Positions 27,896 through 56,176 of a stretch of DNA of 64,000 bases are shown piece by piece; position 1 is the first letter of the stretch, and each line of letters opens with the position of its first letter. Below the pieces are notes generated by a model. The model worked only from the letters and a program-made list of their open reading frames with translations. It was not told where the DNA came from and ran no database searches. This DNA is from Candidatus Daviesbacteria bacterium (GTDB taxonomy: Bacteria > Patescibacteriota > Microgenomatia > Daviesbacterales > UBA10151): NCBI GenBank assembly GCA_016186955.1, contig JACPKP010000009.1, forward strand, positions 24,463 to 88,462, written 5' to 3'. Made by a program: the position numbers and the translations under genes.

Positions 27896-27966
27896 GTCAT
27901 CGCGAGGTCCGACGTACATCGGACCGTGGCGATCTAATAAGATTGCTTCGCTACGCTCGCAATGAC
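27896..27966. repeat. MITE-like palindromic element copy (about 71 bp), intergenic
   Basis: Termini GTCATCGCGAGG...CGCTCGCAATGAC. Internal perfect hairpin GGTCCGACGTACATCGGACC. Contains the GCTTCGCT core. Confidence 0.5.
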
Positions 27967-28006
27967 GAAACTGCTGGGAAGAACTGAACTCATACTCAAC
28001 AATGTA

Positions 28007-28035
28007 TTGATATACTAATCATTTCGTGCTATAAT
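28007..28035 (+). promoter_or_regulatory. Sigma70 promoter TTGATA-17-TATAAT giving a leaderless transcript for ORF 28042
   Basis: TTGATA at 28007-12 and TATAAT at 28030-35. The ATG lies 7 nt after the -10 box. Confidence 0.6.
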
Positions 28036-28041
28036 TTCCGC

Positions 28042-28512
28042 ATGACAGAATACGAATGCCCTCGTGCTAAACTGACTACCAATAAAATTGAGAAAATTCA
28101 GGGCAGCATTTCATTTAGAGTTTCCAAAGACCCAGCTGTGCTTGAAGTGGCAAAAATGGTAACGGCTGGAATATACGGACCACCTAGTCTACACCCTAGA
28201 TATGAAGCTTGGCTTGCTCGCTATGGGCAAAGAAAGACTGAAGAATTAATACATGATGCGGTTACGATTGCTGGTGCGTGTGATATTATACAGACTGATA
28301 TGGAGTTAGGGGGTGTAGGACTTTTTGGAGGTTTGTCAGAAAAAGGCTTAGCAGGAGATAAAAGCGAGTTTGTTTTTTATGAATGGTTAAGTCCGGAGGA
28401 TGGACAGCTGACTACTATAGTAACATCTGGTGAAGCTAGAGACATTGTAAATAGGAGAAAAAGGGTAATTGAATTTAGAAGGGCACCGCGATCTGAAAGT
28501 CTTCTGACTTAA
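28042..28512 (+). CDS. Hypothetical 156-aa protein (orphan, unknown function)
   Basis: Clean ORF with its own strong promoter and no Shine-Dalgarno sequence. No motif recognised. Confidence 0.5.
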   Translation: MTEYECPRAKLTTNKIEKIQGSISFRVSKDPAVLEVAKMVTAGIYGPPSLHPRYEAWLARYGQRKTEELIHDAVTIAGACDIIQTDMELGGVGLFGGLSEKGLAGDKSEFVFYEWLSPEDGQLTTIVTSGEARDIVNRRKRVIEFRRAPRSESLLT

Positions 28513-28685
28513 AATTCTTTTATTTGGGTATAAACAACACCATCAGTTTATTTTCGAACCAGAATACCTCTTAAAATACTGGCCATTAATACTGACAATG
28601 GCCCGGAATATTTACTTGCCTTTCATAAAAAAGGGGTCCTGAACAATGTATTGACTTAAGCGTTGGGAACTGGTAAAAAGGTTTT

Positions 28686-28907
28686 ATGGATCGTGAGAGA
28701 AATGTTAATTTTGAAGTAGAAATGCCTAAAGAGTCATATCAAACTTTAGAAAATATAGCATATTTTACTGATGTACAAAATATTGATTGGTTAGCAAAAG
28801 TTATGCAGGATGCTTTAAGGGTTTATGATAGGATATTGCAATATCAATCTCAACGCAAAACGGTTGCATTACTGGATGATGCGCAGTTGTCCAAACTGGC
28901 AGATTAG
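28686..28907 (+). CDS. Hypothetical small protein (73 aa)
   Basis: The ORF is preceded by the same AACAATGTATTGA motif found in front of ORF 28042. Confidence 0.4.
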   Translation: MDRERNVNFEVEMPKESYQTLENIAYFTDVQNIDWLAKVMQDALRVYDRILQYQSQRKTVALLDDAQLSKLAD

Positions 28908-29012
28908 TCAACAGAAGCGCCGGTTACATTTAATAGTTTCATTTGTCCAGGCAAACTGATCCAAGCAGAAGAATATTATAAAAAATTGTTAGAAGATAAA
29001 AAACAGAGTAAG

Positions 29013-54203: not shown

Positions 54204-54212
54204 CACGAAAAA

Positions 54213-54229
54213 CCCCGCACGTAGCGGGG
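54213..54229 (+). terminator. Hairpin CCCCGC-ACGTA-GCGGGG downstream of ORF 53478
   Basis: 6-bp GC stem 10 nt after the stop. The tail ATTCTC is only weakly U-rich. Confidence 0.4.
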
Positions 54230-54334
54230 ATTCTCGCAAACTTACTTTACAGCAAGCAATGTTATATATATCATCAGAGATGGGACTGGTCAACTATGAT
54301 CAATTATGACAAAATATAACATGATACAATAGTA

Positions 54335-54790
54335 ATGGAACATCTTATGATCTATATTGGCAGCGACCACCGTGGTTTCGAATTAAAAGAGCGTTTGAAA
54401 AAACGTCTGGTTGATAATGGTTTGACAGTGACTGATTTGGGGAATGACCATTTAGACCCTCAGGATGATTATGTGGATTTTGCCCAAGATGTTGCAGAAG
54501 CTGTCAAAGGAAGTGTTGGGAACAAAGGGATTTTGCTGTGCGGTTCCGGGGCTGGGATGGATATGGTGGCAAATAAGGTTAAAGGGATAAGGTCTGCACT
54601 GGTTTTTGACACCCAAAGGGCAGTTCAAGCAAGGGAGCATGAAGATGCAAATGTTATAACATTGCCCGCAGATATTTTAGATGAGCAGCAGGCTTATGAG
54701 ATTACAAAGGCATTTTTGGAAACTGGATTTAGTGGGGAAGAAAGACATGTCAGGAGACTGGAGAAGATGGGTAAGATTGAGGAGCAATGA
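54335..54790 (+). CDS. rpiB: Ribose-5-phosphate isomerase B
   Basis: RpiB/LacAB fold with YIGSDHRGFELK and CGSGAGM motifs. Confidence 0.85.
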   Translation: MEHLMIYIGSDHRGFELKERLKKRLVDNGLTVTDLGNDHLDPQDDYVDFAQDVAEAVKGSVGNKGILLCGSGAGMDMVANKVKGIRSALVFDTQRAVQAREHEDANVITLPADILDEQQAYEITKAFLETGFSGEERHVRRLEKMGKIEEQ

Positions 54791-55440
54791 TTCAAATAAT
54801 CCCGGCTATACTTTCAACGAAAGAATCGGATTTTGAACGTGACATTGAAAGGTATAACAATTCAGAGCTGCTTTGGGGAGGGTGGGTGCATATTGATTTC
54901 ATGGATAATTTATTTGTTCCAAACAAGAGTATTGAACCTGAAATTGTTTCTAAATATCCAATAAAACTGTATAAAGAAGCCCATCTTATGGTTTTGCATC
55001 CTTTAGGATGGATAGAGAAATTAGCAGAGGCAGGTTTTAAAAGAGTACTTTTCCACTTAGAAGCAGCAGATGATATCAATGAATGTATTGAGTCAATCAA
55101 TAGTAAAGGTATGGAAGTGGGTTTAGCATTAAATATTGAAACACCAGTTGAAAAATTAAACCCCTTTGCAGATAAAATAGACAAAGTCCTGTTGATGTCG
55201 ATTACACCAGGGTTTCAAGGAAATTCTTTTAAGAGAGAAGTTTTAGAAAAGATAAAGGAAACTTCCCATCTTCGTTCGAAGAATGAAGATTTAAAGATTG
55301 GTGTTGACGGATCAGTCAAAGACGAAAATGCTAAATTATTGGTCGATGCGGGAGCAGATTTTTTAATAGTGGGATCATTTTTATTGAAAGGAGATATAAA
55401 TGCAAATCTGGAAAAGATTTGGGAAAAAGTTAGCAGTTAA
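54787..55440 (+). CDS. rpe: Ribulose-phosphate 3-epimerase
   Basis: HIDFMDNLFVPN (HxDxMDGxFVpN) motif. 4-nt overlap with rpiB. Confidence 0.85.
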   Translation: MIQIIPAILSTKESDFERDIERYNNSELLWGGWVHIDFMDNLFVPNKSIEPEIVSKYPIKLYKEAHLMVLHPLGWIEKLAEAGFKRVLFHLEAADDINECIESINSKGMEVGLALNIETPVEKLNPFADKIDKVLLMSITPGFQGNSFKREVLEKIKETSHLRSKNEDLKIGVDGSVKDENAKLLVDAGADFLIVGSFLLKGDINANLEKIWEKVSS

Positions 55441-56056
55441 AAAAGCCACCACTATCCAATATGTGACTATCTTCGGTTATGCCGATGTTTCGGAAAACCA
55501 GAGGCTTTTCAAAGAGGTTTTTGAAGCGTGCAAGGCATTGGCGCTTGCAGGTTATACGATTGTAAACGGTGGGGGGCCGGGGACAATGGAGGCGGCAACA
55601 CTAGGGGCGCATGAAGGTGGCGGTAAGGCCATAGGTGTTAGTTTTAACCCATTGGACATGACCAATTTTGAAGGGGTTGACCCAAATAACAAGGTTGATA
55701 AGCTGATACAAAAAACAAGTTACCTGGAAAGGACACTGACGCTTTTAAAAGAGGGACAAGTGTACCTAATTTTTAGAGGGGGGACAGGGACAATCTCTGA
55801 ATTCGGGATGGCCTGGGGATTGGCCAGGCTTTATTTTGGGCATCATAAACCGCTAATTTTATACGGGAATTTCTGGAAAAAAATTATTAAAACTTTTAAA
55901 GAAAATATGCTGCTCAGGCCGGAGGAGTTGAAGGTATTTAAAATTGTTGACTCACCAAAAGGAGTTTTAAAGGCCATATGGGAATTTGAGAGGGAAATTG
56001 AAAAAGGGGAACATGGCCACCATATTAAAGTTAGCAAGGGAGATTTTAGTATTTAG
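55400..56056 (+). CDS. LOG family protein (TIGR00730 Rossmann-fold nucleotide-binding/phosphoribohydrolase)
   Basis: NGGGPGTMEA and FRGGTGTISE (PGGxGTxxE) motifs. The start is probably an internal Met downstream of the annotated one. Confidence 0.75.
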   Translation: MQIWKRFGKKLAVKKATTIQYVTIFGYADVSENQRLFKEVFEACKALALAGYTIVNGGGPGTMEAATLGAHEGGGKAIGVSFNPLDMTNFEGVDPNNKVDKLIQKTSYLERTLTLLKEGQVYLIFRGGTGTISEFGMAWGLARLYFGHHKPLILYGNFWKKIIKTFKENMLLRPEELKVFKIVDSPKGVLKAIWEFEREIEKGEHGHHIKVSKGDFSI

Positions 56057-56061
56057 TATTT

Positions 56062-56176
56062 GTCATTCCGAATGCAGTGAGGAATCTCTCAACTAGTTTG
56101 AGAAGATAAACAAAATATGGCATAATAGAATTATCTCACATTCGTGAGAGATCCTTCGCCTTCGGCTCAGGATGAC
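56062..56176. repeat. MITE-like palindromic element copy (about 115 bp) upstream of the transketolase N-subunit gene
   Basis: Left end GTCATTCCGAATGCAGTGAGGAATCTCTC. Right end (reverse complement) GTCATCCTGAGCCGAAGGCGAAGGATCTCTC. Internal hairpin TCTCACATTCGTGAGA. Confidence 0.55.

What the first reader, a model, noticed from the sequence alone, without database searches (positions are those of the whole stretch)
27896..56176. Family of short GTCAT(T/C)C-terminated palindromic repeats (four copies in this window)
The copies are at 16686-16783, 27896-27966, 30895-30956 and 56062-56176. They share termini of the form GTCAT(T/C)C(C/T/G)... on both ends as inverted repeats. They also share an internal CGAAG/GCTTCG core and GGA(A)TCTCTC subterminal boxes. 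Each arm often forms its own hairpin, for example ATTCCCGCGAAAGCGGGAAT. Their sizes are 62-115 bp, and they lie before promoters or genes (aspS, tkt, ORF 28042). A read-through translation gives the SRFRGNDS-type peptide seen in spurious ORF 30787-30984. They look like a non-autonomous MITE family or REP-like structural repeats, and would be useful recombination and annotation markers.
Basis: seen in the sequence. Interest (0 to 1): 0.6.

Follow-up and report, generated by a model that had tools for sequence, protein, structure and literature searches.

The report
Tagged REP hairpin repeats in Daviesbacteria
The repeats are real and belong to an already described class of small hairpin-forming bacterial repeats (CGTC-tagged REPs, also called dRS3/NTS/SRM). 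They are seen here in a tiny-genome CPR bacterium, where two of five copies sit in frame inside essential genes, and the same protein loops carry different copies in many relatives.

Summary
All four reported copies are present at the stated coordinates and are far beyond chance. A fifth, single-arm copy lies at 63025-63069. Each arm has an unpaired (C/T)GTC tag, a hairpin whose stem starts with AT, and a C after the stem. Four elements are inverted pairs with the tags on the outside.

This anatomy matches the CGTC-tagged REP superfamily (Di Nocera 2013), which includes Neisseria dRS3/NTS, the "Ssn-related motifs" (Chenal 2025) and Rickettsia RPE-4/-6. One arm of copy 3 is a Neisseria NTS apart from two end bases.

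The window comes from a Candidatus Daviesbacteria genome (CPR). Copy 1 is not upstream of a gene. It lies in frame inside the CCA-adding enzyme gene, and the fifth copy lies in frame inside copA.

Of 79 related genomes, 13 carry different tagged REPs in the same CCA loop, while the closest relative has none. About 20 of 120 CPR CopA orthologues have extra sequence in the same CopA loop, much of it REP-like at peptide level.

There are no target-site duplications, so the classical MITE reading is not supported. "REP-like" is correct. No partner enzyme (Ssn-type GIY-YIG nuclease or RAYT) is encoded in the window, so how the repeats spread is inferred, not shown. This is a new member of a known kind, of moderate interest.

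The parts
16686..16738 (+). Copy 1, left REP arm. Tag cGTC, stem ATTCTGG/CCAGAAT, 35-nt loop with nested GCTTCGC/GAAGC mini-hairpins, then C(TC).
16753..16783 (-). Copy 1, right REP arm. On the minus strand it reads cGTC-ATTCTGG-GGAGCGAAGCGACT-CCAGAA-CCA. Together with the left arm it forms a head-to-head dimer (14-nt spacer) translated as VILGSEATPEPNQTRDSGQAHLAGASAKRARMT.
   Evidence: (CM E=2.3).
15719..17173 (-). CCA tRNA-nucleotidyltransferase gene that hosts copy 1 in frame. The insert is roughly residues 131-162, where B. stearothermophilus CCA (1MIV) has 3 residues.
27896..27934 (+). Copy 2, left REP arm. Tag cGTC, stem ATCGC/GCGAT, nested hairpin GGTCCGA-CGTACA-TCGGACC, then C.
   Evidence: (E=0.5).
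27941..27966 (-). Copy 2, right REP arm: cGTC-ATTGC-GAGCGTAGCGAAG-GCAAT-C. It is 96% identical over 28 nt to two arms in locus L006.
28007..28035 (+). Promoter-like site TTGATA-17-TATAAT (11/12, TG-extended), between copy 2 and ORF 28042-28512.
   Evidence: Consensus match only.
30895..30918 (+). Copy 3, left REP arm: tGTC-ATTCCCGC-GAAA-GCGGGAAT-C. It equals the Neisseria NTS consensus except for the first and last base, and it matches the published SRM pattern.
   Evidence: E=4e-8; used to build the model.
30932..30956 (-). Copy 3, right REP arm: tGTC-ATCCCCGAT-TTA-ATCGGGGAT-CCA. It matches the SRM pattern. The dimer is a heterodimer with a 13-nt spacer and ends 15 nt before the aspS start at 30972.
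30849..30877 (+). Weak promoter-like site (9/12) upstream of copy 3. If real, it would place copy 3 in the aspS 5' leader.
   Evidence: Consensus match only.
56062..56086 (+). Copy 4, left REP arm: tGTC-ATTCC-GAATGCAGTGA-GGAAT-C(TCTC).
   Evidence: (E=0.013).
56150..56176 (-). Copy 4, right REP arm: tGTC-ATCCT-GAGCCGAAGGCGA-AGGAT-C(TCTC). Its ATGAC end supplies the first ATG of the tkt-N ORF (56172).
   Evidence: (E=0.09).
56098..56126 (+). Promoter-like site TTGAGA-17-CATAAT (10/12, TG-extended) inside the 63-nt spacer of copy 4. Copy 4 may therefore be two single REPs bracketing the tkt promoter.
   Evidence: Consensus match only.
63025..63069 (-). Copy 5, newly found: a single REP arm, tGTC-ATTCCC-[29-nt loop with nested hairpin GCCTGCC..GGCAGGC]-GGGAAT-CCA. 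It is in frame in copA and translated as (E)[16 protein letters not shown].
   Evidence: (E=9.8).
61681..63945 (+). Copper P-type ATPase gene that hosts copy 5. A 15-residue insert sits exactly where A. fulgidus CopA (3J09) has a gap, just after the DKTGT phosphorylation motif region.

Best explanation
The elements are CGTC/TGTC-tagged repetitive palindromes. This is the REP superfamily that contains Neisseria dRS3/NTS, the 'Ssn-related motifs' and Rickettsia RPE-4/-6. Here they are carried by a Candidatus Daviesbacteria (CPR) genome.

The unit is one arm. It has an unpaired (C/T)GTC tag, a hairpin whose stem starts with AT and often holds GCGAAGC-type ultra-stable DNA mini-hairpins, and a C or CCA tail. 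Four of the five elements are head-to-head dimers with the tags outside. This is the REPIN-like arrangement that predominates in the family.

Shown:
- The anatomy.
- The match to the published motif.
- Related arms in many Daviesbacteria genomes.
- The absence of target-site duplications.
- In-frame residence in protein loops.
- Presence/absence and sequence turnover at one orthologous site.

Inferred: the units act as single-stranded DNA hairpins recognised in trans by a small enzyme encoded elsewhere in the genome. The likeliest candidate is an Ssn-type GIY-YIG ssDNA nuclease. In Neisseria this enzyme binds exactly this motif, requires the C after the stem, and cuts a few bases 5' of the tag. 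A RAYT-type HUH transposase is the alternative.

Nicking or copying at such hairpins would spread units, or convert them between sites, without duplicating the target. Copies would persist wherever they are tolerated: gene-proximal spacers and surface loops of proteins, helped by five of the six reading frames of a unit being open. A resident unit may then serve as a preferred site for replacement by other units, which would explain the recurrently occupied loops.
For: Anatomy:
- All 9 arms have GTC + AT-stem...stem-AT + C. The tag is CGTC in 4 arms and TGTC in 5.
- The published SRM pattern matches both arms of copy 3, against 0.09 expected.
- The left arm of copy 3 equals the NTS consensus CGTCATTCCCGCGMAVGCGGGAATCYRG except at its two end positions.

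Literature:
- PMC3733652 defines CGTC REPs by the CGTC/TGTC tag, stems almost invariably starting with AT, short tails, mainly HH dimers (tags outside) and known intragenic units. It equates them with dRS3 and RPE-4/-6.
- PMC11893778 shows SsnA binding and cutting this motif only as ssDNA. The C after the palindrome and the three bases before it are critical.

Relatives:
- A covariance model finds 33 arms (E<1) in 1.47 Mb from 80 Daviesbacteria/Microgenomates genomes.
- Window arms have 90-96% identical counterparts in those genomes, although the host proteins are only about 65-76% identical.
- GTCAT is followed by a hairpin of at least 6 bp about twice as often as control pentamers.

Mobility and turnover:
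- The closest relative, L001, has an empty CCA loop.
- 13 of 79 loci carry different singlets or dimers there, in at least 3 reading frames.
- Gene pairs 83% identical at nucleotide level carry unrelated inserts.
- No TSDs.

ssDNA-level signal: 6 of the window's 32 mini-hairpin motifs lie in the 390 bp of the elements (PMC13037366).
Against: - No GIY-YIG and no RAYT gene is present in the 64-kb window.
- The only three GIY-YIG genes in 1.47 Mb of related DNA sit beside tRNA-Gln and are not flanked by tagged hairpins.
- Around 80 metagenomic relatives of those genes, the arm density is the same as background, 0.022 per kb.
- Most arms here have 5-7-bp outer stems and 11-35-nt structured loops, outside the 8-9 bp / 4-5 nt of the published CGTC families. 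They fail the published SRM pattern.
- The five copies differ from one another, unlike a recently expanded REPIN population.
- Density is low, about one element per 13 kb in the window and about one arm per 45 kb in relatives.
- The covariation statistics come from arms selected for perfect stems.
Confidence: 0.72

Rival explanations
1. REPINs mobilised by a RAYT. The inverted REP pairs would be non-autonomous elements copied by a single-copy REP-associated tyrosine (HUH) transposase encoded elsewhere in the genome. This has been proposed for the Neisseria repeat with the same core.
For: The doublet architecture is REPIN-like. Bertels and Rainey assign ATTCCCGCGCAGGCGGGAATC REPINs in Neisseria to a Group 2 RAYT. 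There are no TSDs, as expected for HUH/ssDNA transposition.
Against: tblastn with E. coli RayT finds nothing in the window or in 1.47 Mb of related genomes (best E=1.4). Di Nocera et al. state that CGTC REPs lack an associated transposase gene. The copies here are not a near-identical population around a master sequence. One distant query and roughly 2% sampling of each genome make this a weak negative.
Confidence: 0.18
2. Classical MITE: a deletion derivative of an insertion sequence, with terminal inverted repeats GTCAT..., moved by a DDE transposase and making target-site duplications.
For: Inverted GTCAT termini of 5-10 bp, small size (62-115 bp) and dispersed copies.
Against: No TSD at any of the five elements. 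Single arms occur alone, in copA and in many CCA loops. The arms of one element can differ in stem and loop. Similarity between copies lies in tag and structure, not in an internal sequence. No transposase ORF was recognised in the window, but only 11 of its roughly 70 ORFs were run against family libraries.
Confidence: 0.04
3. Host-selected structural or regulatory hairpins, not mobile. Roles could include mRNA stabilisers, attenuators, terminators or promoter insulators, maintained in place by selection.
For: Copies 2-4 are gene-proximal. Copy 3 lies between a weak promoter-like site and the aspS start. Copy 4 brackets a promoter-like site. REPs elsewhere are reported to act on transcripts.
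Against: This does not explain in-frame copies inside the CCA and copA genes, unrelated units at one orthologous loop in close relatives, or near-identical arms in genomes whose genes are far more diverged. None of the arms is followed by a T-run, and Rfam has no match. It is compatible as a secondary, exapted role.
Confidence: 0.1
4. Chance similarity between unrelated short palindromes.
For: The copies share little sequence beyond GTCAT and short stems. GTCAT followed by a 6-bp hairpin also arises by chance, as roughly 2% of control pentamers show.
Against: Pattern expectations are 0.00-0.09. Nine of nine arms keep tag, AT-start and trailing C. Model hits recover 7 of the window's 9 arms at E<4 and an eighth (copy 5) at E=9.8; the left arm of copy 1 is not found. 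The same units occur in dozens of related genomes.
Confidence: 0.01

Closest known systems
CGTC-tagged REP superfamily (Di Nocera, De Gregorio and Rocco 2013, PMC3733652)
   Same: Unpaired CGTC/TGTC tag, stem beginning with AT, short C-initial tail (CCA in 3 of 9 arms), predominance of head-to-head dimers with the tags outside, heterodimers, intragenic in-frame units, and no adjacent transposase.
   Different: Only copy 3 has the canonical 8-9-bp stem and 3-4-nt loop. The other arms have 5-7-bp outer stems and long structured loops. The host is a CPR bacterium, and the text read here mentions no CPR hosts. The intragenic share is far higher than usual.
Neisseria dRS3 / NTS and Ssn-related motifs (SRM) with the SsnA GIY-YIG ssDNA nuclease (Chenal et al. 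2025, PMC11893778)
   Same: The left arm of copy 3 equals the NTS consensus except for its two end bases. Both arms of copy 3 match the SRM pattern. The bases that matter for SsnA (three upstream, and the C after the stem) are the ones invariant here.
   Different: No ssn gene lies in the window or next to any arm in related loci. NTS are rarely intragenic (2%) and occur in hundreds of clustered copies, whereas here copies are few, dispersed and often intragenic. A role in natural transformation is untested for CPR.
Rickettsia palindromic elements (RPE-4/RPE-6, equated with CGTC-4/CGTC-1; RPE-1 for the phenomenon)
   Same: Palindromic repeats inserted in frame into conserved protein genes of a reduced-genome bacterium, adding 15-35 residues in loops.
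   Different: No NCBIfam family of any kind (RPE domain models, if the library holds them, included) matches the encoded peptides. The host phylum differs. The recurrence of different units in the same loop across many lineages was not found in the papers read here.
REPIN-RAYT systems (Pseudomonas, E. coli, Neisseria)
   Same: Inverted REP doublets forming long hairpins, no TSD, and a presumed single-copy enzyme acting in trans.
   Different: No RAYT detected. There is no near-identical population around a master sequence. The tag is CGTC rather than GTAG.
Bacterial MITEs (e.g. Correia/NEMIS, Coxiella QMITEs)
   Same: Small size, inverted termini, occasional in-frame insertion and promoter-proximal positions.
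   Different: MITEs have TIRs derived from an IS and target-site duplications, and neither is seen here. The unit here is a single tagged hairpin.

Membership tests
CGTC-tagged REP superfamily | Unpaired CGTC (or TGTC/CCTC) tag at one end of the palindrome | tested here: met
   9 of 9 arms: CGTC in 4 and TGTC in 5.
CGTC-tagged REP superfamily | Stem begins with complementary A-T, T-A pairs | tested here: met
   9 of 9 arms start with AT and 8 of 9 end with AT. The right arm of copy 1 lacks the final T. In the 14-arm alignment, columns 7-29 and 8-28 are invariant.
CGTC-tagged REP superfamily | Stem 8-9 bp and loop 4-5 nt | tested here: not met
   Only copy 3 comes close (8 bp/4 nt and 9 bp/3 nt). 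Copies 1, 2, 4 and 5 have 5-7-bp outer stems and 11-35-nt loops with nested hairpins. The authors themselves note exceptions and undetected variants.
CGTC-tagged REP superfamily | Three-base unpaired tail, mostly CCA | tested here: inconclusive
   C is invariant after the stem. The tail is CCA in 3 of 9 arms, CTC in 3, CTA in 2 and CTT in 1.
CGTC-tagged REP superfamily | Mostly head-to-head dimers (tags outside), spacers typically 20-100 bp | tested here: met
   4 HH dimers and 1 singlet, with spacers of 14, 6, 13 and 63 nt.
Ssn-related motif (SRM/NTS) | Match to the published degenerate pattern HGTCWY..RNCYNB | tested here: inconclusive
   2 of 9 arms match (both arms of copy 3; 0.09 expected). 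The others fail because of their long loops.
Ssn-related motif (SRM/NTS) | A cd10448 GIY-YIG (ssn) gene in the same genome, typically flanked by the motif | tested here: inconclusive
   None in the window. The three GIY-YIG genes in related loci, and 80 metagenomic relatives of them, show no enrichment of arms. CDD subfamily assignment could not be made with these tools.
Ssn-related motif (SRM/NTS) | Strand-specific binding and cleavage by the cognate Ssn as ssDNA | not testable with these tools
   Needs biochemistry.
REPIN-RAYT | RAYT (Y1 HUH transposase) gene, usually flanked by the REPs | tested here: inconclusive
   No tblastn hit with E. coli RayT in the window or in 1.47 Mb of relatives. 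This used a single distant query and partial genomes.
REPIN-RAYT | Population of near-identical doublets around a master sequence | tested here: not met
   The five window elements share only tag and architecture. blastn finds no second copy of any element in the window.
MITE | Target-site duplication flanking the element | tested here: not met
   The best flanking direct repeats are 0-4 nt and offset, which is chance level.
MITE | Terminal inverted repeats matching a full-length IS with transposase | tested here: not met
   No transposase ORF was recognised in the window. Only 11 of its roughly 70 ORFs were run against family libraries, so this is a weak negative. The 'TIRs' are the tags plus the stems of independent hairpins.
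Rickettsia palindromic elements (RPE) | In-frame insertion in conserved protein genes | tested here: met
   CCA enzyme and CopA.
Rickettsia palindromic elements (RPE) | Encoded peptide matches an RPE domain model | tested here: not met
   No NCBIfam hit of any kind for the four REP-derived peptides at E<=10. Whether the library holds RPE domain models rests on my recollection.

The most novel reading that the evidence does not exclude
In CPR bacteria, tagged REP hairpins would be an active system that repeatedly lands in, or replaces itself at, the same few surface loops of essential proteins such as the CCA-adding enzyme and CopA. Occupancy there is far above what neutral tolerance predicts. 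The driving enzyme would be neither a recognisable RAYT nor an SRM-flanked Ssn gene. REPs would then be a regular generator of protein-length variation in minimal genomes, and their mobilising activity in this phylum would still be undiscovered.
Probability: 0.25. Interest if true: 0.6.

Novelty: new member of a known kind. Interest (0 to 1): 0.4.

Why it matters
For annotation:
- These units create spurious ORFs (30787-30984).
- They create false start codons (tkt at 56172).
- They add unexplained 15-33-residue inserts to conserved CPR proteins. Recognising them cleans up gene models.

For biology:
- They extend the CGTC-REP/SRM class to the Candidate Phyla Radiation, where no such report was found in the papers I could search.
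- About half of the units in Daviesbacteria lie inside genes, and particular protein loops are occupied in 16-17% of lineages by different units. This resembles the Rickettsia RPEs and gives a tractable data set for one question: are such insertions targeted, retained by selection, or merely tolerated?
- The apparent lack of an adjacent Ssn or RAYT gene bears on the open question of what moves CGTC-type REPs.

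Tried and rejected
- Rfam at gathering thresholds found only tRNA-Gln and tRNA-Glu, with no RNA family at the repeats.
- NCBIfam found no family of any kind for the four REP-encoded peptides.
- Exact-protein lookup of the host contig failed twice, so the rest of the genome could not be read.
- Searching for the partner enzyme:
  - A GIY-YIG regex and an ad hoc HMM found nothing in the window.
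  - E. coli RayT tblastn found nothing anywhere.
  - The three GIY-YIG genes in related loci are linked to tRNA-Gln and not flanked by tagged hairpins.
  - A metagenome scan for relatives of those genes gave 80 loci with background arm density only. This GIY-YIG subgroup is therefore rejected as the demonstrated partner.
- A target-site duplication search was negative.
- I considered a conserved insertion target upstream of the tag. The three bases before GTCAT are often pyrimidine-rich in the CCA loops but not at the window's intergenic copies, so no target motif is claimed.
- I noted that the host DPF codons (GATCC) resemble the REP 3' end. This was not tested and is not claimed.
- The supplementary tables of the Ssn paper (SsnA sequences, taxon lists) are not held.
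- The strict perfect-stem scan has a high background: about half of the 6-bp-stem hits are chance. It was used only with stems of at least 7 bp and then replaced by the covariance model.

Full report
**Observation**

The four elements read exactly as reported, at 16686-16783, 27896-27966, 30895-30956 and 56062-56176.
- A pattern for the shared termini finds copy 3 with 0.00 matches expected. A looser pattern finds copy 1 with 0.05 expected.
- As single-stranded DNA the elements fold better than dinucleotide shuffles, with z from -1.9 to -6.3.
- A scan for 'GTC + hairpin starting with AT' revealed a fifth, single-arm copy at 63025-63069 on the minus strand.
- A covariance model built from 14 short-loop arms was run over the whole window with filters off. 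It recovered the arms of copies 3 (by construction), 4 (E=0.013 and 0.09), 2, 1 and 5. It found nothing new.

**Anatomy**

The unit is the arm, not the whole element.
- All nine arms have an unpaired GTC preceded by C (4 arms) or T (5 arms).
- The stem begins with AT, ends with AT in 8 of 9 arms, and is followed by a C.
- Stem sequences differ between arms (ATTCCCGC, ATCCCCGAT, ATTCTGG, ATCGC, ATTGC, ATTCC, ATCCT, ATTCCC) while staying complementary.
- Loops range from 3-4 nt (copy 3) to 35 nt with nested hairpins.
Six of the 32 such motifs in the window lie in the 390 bp of the elements.
- Four elements are inverted pairs with the tags outside, with spacers of 14, 6, 13 and 63 nt.
- No element is flanked by a target-site duplication.

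**Context**

The window is from a Candidatus Daviesbacteria (Microgenomates, CPR) assembly. The CCA enzyme and CopA are 100% identical to MBI2596052.1 and MBI2596096.1, which sit on a 291-kb contig.
- Copy 2 lies between recJ and a promoter-like site in front of ORF 28042.
- Copy 3 ends 15 nt before the aspS start.
- Copy 4 lies between a LOG-family gene and the N-terminal transketolase gene. It has a promoter-like site in its spacer, and its ATGAC end provides the first ATG of the ORF.
- Copy 1 is not upstream of a gene, contrary to the finding. It lies inside the CCA tRNA-nucleotidyltransferase ORF and is translated in frame. Against B. stearothermophilus CCA (1MIV), the alignment breaks at residues 131-162, where the solved protein has 3 residues.
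- Copy 5 adds 15 residues to CopA exactly at a gap against A. fulgidus CopA (3J09).

**Relatives**

A scan of species-representative genomes with the CCA enzyme returned 80 loci (1.47 Mb) from Daviesbacteria and other Microgenomates.
- The arm model finds 33 arms at E<1 in these loci.
- 19 of the 33 lie inside ORFs of at least 200 codons that read through them, and 14 lie outside long ORFs.
- Window arms have 90-96% identical counterparts in these genomes, although the host proteins are only about 65-76% identical.

The CCA loop is a recurrent site.
- The closest relative (L001, 76% protein identity) has a short, empty loop.
- 13 of 79 loci carry tagged REPs there, as singlets or dimers, with different stems and in at least three reading frames.
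- Gene pairs 83% identical at nucleotide level carry unrelated inserts.
- Seven model hits fall in these loops. Even allowing 150 bp per locus, that is about 0.6 per kb. The comparison figures are 0.095 per kb for DNA outside long ORFs and 0.022 per kb overall.
- The site was chosen post hoc, so this enrichment is indicative only.

The same holds for CopA. About 20 of 120 CPR orthologues have extra sequence (11-26 residues) in the same loop. About half of these inserts carry REP-type peptide signatures such as VILS..., VIARS...KQS, SVIPAKAGI and ...DSRLRGND. Two other CopA sites show similar peptides. CopA inserts were examined at peptide level only.

**Identity**

Full-text search with the arm sequences led to three papers.
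- Di Nocera et al. 2013 (PMC3733652) sort bacterial REPs into GTAG- and CGTC-tagged superfamilies. CGTC REPs have a CGTC/TGTC tag, stems almost always starting with AT, short tails (mostly CCA), mainly head-to-head dimers (tags outside), frequent heterodimers, known intragenic in-frame units and no associated transposase. CGTC-1 is Neisseria dRS3, and CGTC-1/-4 are Rickettsia RPE-6/RPE-4.
- Chenal et al. 2025 (PMC11893778) extend dRS3 to the 28-nt NTS, CGTCATTCCCGCGMAVGCGGGAATCYRG, and to a degenerate 'Ssn-related motif' (SRM). They show that the 94-residue GIY-YIG protein SsnA binds and cuts the motif only as ssDNA and only on one strand. The C after the palindrome is critical for binding, and the three bases before it are critical for cutting.
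- Bertels and Rainey assign the same Neisseria core to REPINs of a Group 2 RAYT.

The left arm of copy 3 is an NTS apart from its first and last base. Both arms of copy 3 match the SRM pattern, with 0.09 expected. The positions invariant across all nine arms are the ones that matter for SsnA.

The other arms have longer, structured loops and shorter outer stems than the published families, and they do not match the SRM pattern. I therefore file the elements as members of the CGTC-REP superfamily, with copy 3 canonical and the others long-loop variants.

**Mechanism**

Shown: architecture, family resemblance, dispersal among related genomes, absence of TSDs, turnover at an orthologous site, and in-frame residence in loops.

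Inferred: the units act as ssDNA hairpins recognised by an enzyme encoded elsewhere. A resident unit may favour replacement by other units, since a site that is repeatedly nicked or folded could be repaired from other copies. That would account for different units in the same loop.

I could not find the enzyme.
- The window has no GIY-YIG and no RAYT gene.
- The 1.47 Mb of related DNA has no RAYT hit and only three GIY-YIG genes. These lie beside tRNA-Gln with a duplicated tRNA 5' part and no tagged hairpins.
- Eighty metagenomic loci encoding relatives of those genes have only background arm density, 8 hits in 371 kb.
- These negatives are weak for a single-copy gene, because only about 2% of each genome was sampled. 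They do exclude that GIY-YIG subgroup as a demonstrated partner.

**Rivals**
- The classical MITE model fails on TSDs, on single arms and on heterologous arms.
- A purely regulatory, immobile role does not explain intragenic copies or turnover, though copies 3 and 4 may well affect aspS and tkt expression.
- Chance is excluded.

**Novelty and limits**

The class is known, so the finding itself is a new member of a known kind. Two aspects may be new. One is the host: a full-text search combining REP/REPIN terms with CPR names returned no listed paper that held a REP term, and this covers the held library only. The other is the high intragenic share, with recurrent occupation of the same protein loops.

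Limits:
- Only 64 kb of the genome was available.
- The covariance model's E-values are rough.
- The covariation count is on arms selected for perfect stems.
- Promoter calls are consensus matches.
- CDD subfamily assignment of GIY-YIG proteins was not possible.

Noticed in passing
window 41725-41950: tRNA-Gln(CTG) at 41725-41796 is followed by 2.2 perfect copies of a 43-bp unit, each ending in the tRNA 3' end (GTCCCGCAGCA). After that comes a GC-rich hairpin, GGAGGGTGG...GCCTGtCGGCAGGC...CCACCCTCC. It looks like the scar of repeated integration at the tRNA 3' end.
   Followed up: partly
L012 1-420; L025 1100-1560; L049 255-494: In related Daviesbacteria, a 79-residue GIY-YIG gene sits immediately upstream of tRNA-Gln. 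It is preceded by a duplicated 5' part of the tRNA whose D-loop is replaced by a long hairpin (L012, L025). This suggests a tRNA-targeting GIY-YIG mobile unit. The window has the tRNA-Gln with repeats but no GIY-YIG gene.
   Followed up: partly
L007, L029, L035 and L010 around 10400; proteins P0005, P0008, P0014, P0018, P0032, P0041: A second, unrelated repeat type occupies the same CCA-enzyme loop in other lineages. It consists of pairs of the 13-nt palindrome CACCTC(C/G)GAGGTG, translated as SKHLRGE...HLGG. It has no GTC tag.
   Followed up: no
window 57194-57265 (-): A tRNA-Glu(CTC) gene on the opposite strand sits in the 285-bp gap between the two halves of the split transketolase, tktN (56172-57068) and tktC (57353-58342).
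   Followed up: no
window 17237-25475: This is a run of paralogous genes (17237, 18958, 20524 and 23481; also 25478). Their products share an N-terminal signal-like segment (...GI(I/V)H...LL(I/L)..VG(V/L)I.FLLF..S.S.FKN.LFS.LFPK), and one has a dockerin domain. They are probably secreted or surface proteins.
   Followed up: no
window 46696-53106 (-): A single 2136-codon ORF with strongly negative AT skew. It was not characterised.
   Followed up: no
P0150, P0153, P0186 (CopA orthologues), alignment columns 660-697: Some CPR CopA orthologues carry REP-like peptides at a second site (HPELDSGSKEIPKQVRNDK, SPYHPERSE, STRHSDPPPGGE). More than one loop of this protein therefore accepts such units.
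   Followed up: no
L011 8403-8444 and L025 8478-8519: An identical 42-nt tagged arm (TCTGTCATCCTGAGCGGAGCGCAGCGAAGCGAAGGATCTAAT) lies in frame in the 550-575-codon ORF next to the CCA gene in two genomes. The CCA-loop inserts of those two genomes are unrelated. So some intragenic units are inherited while others turn over.
   Followed up: no
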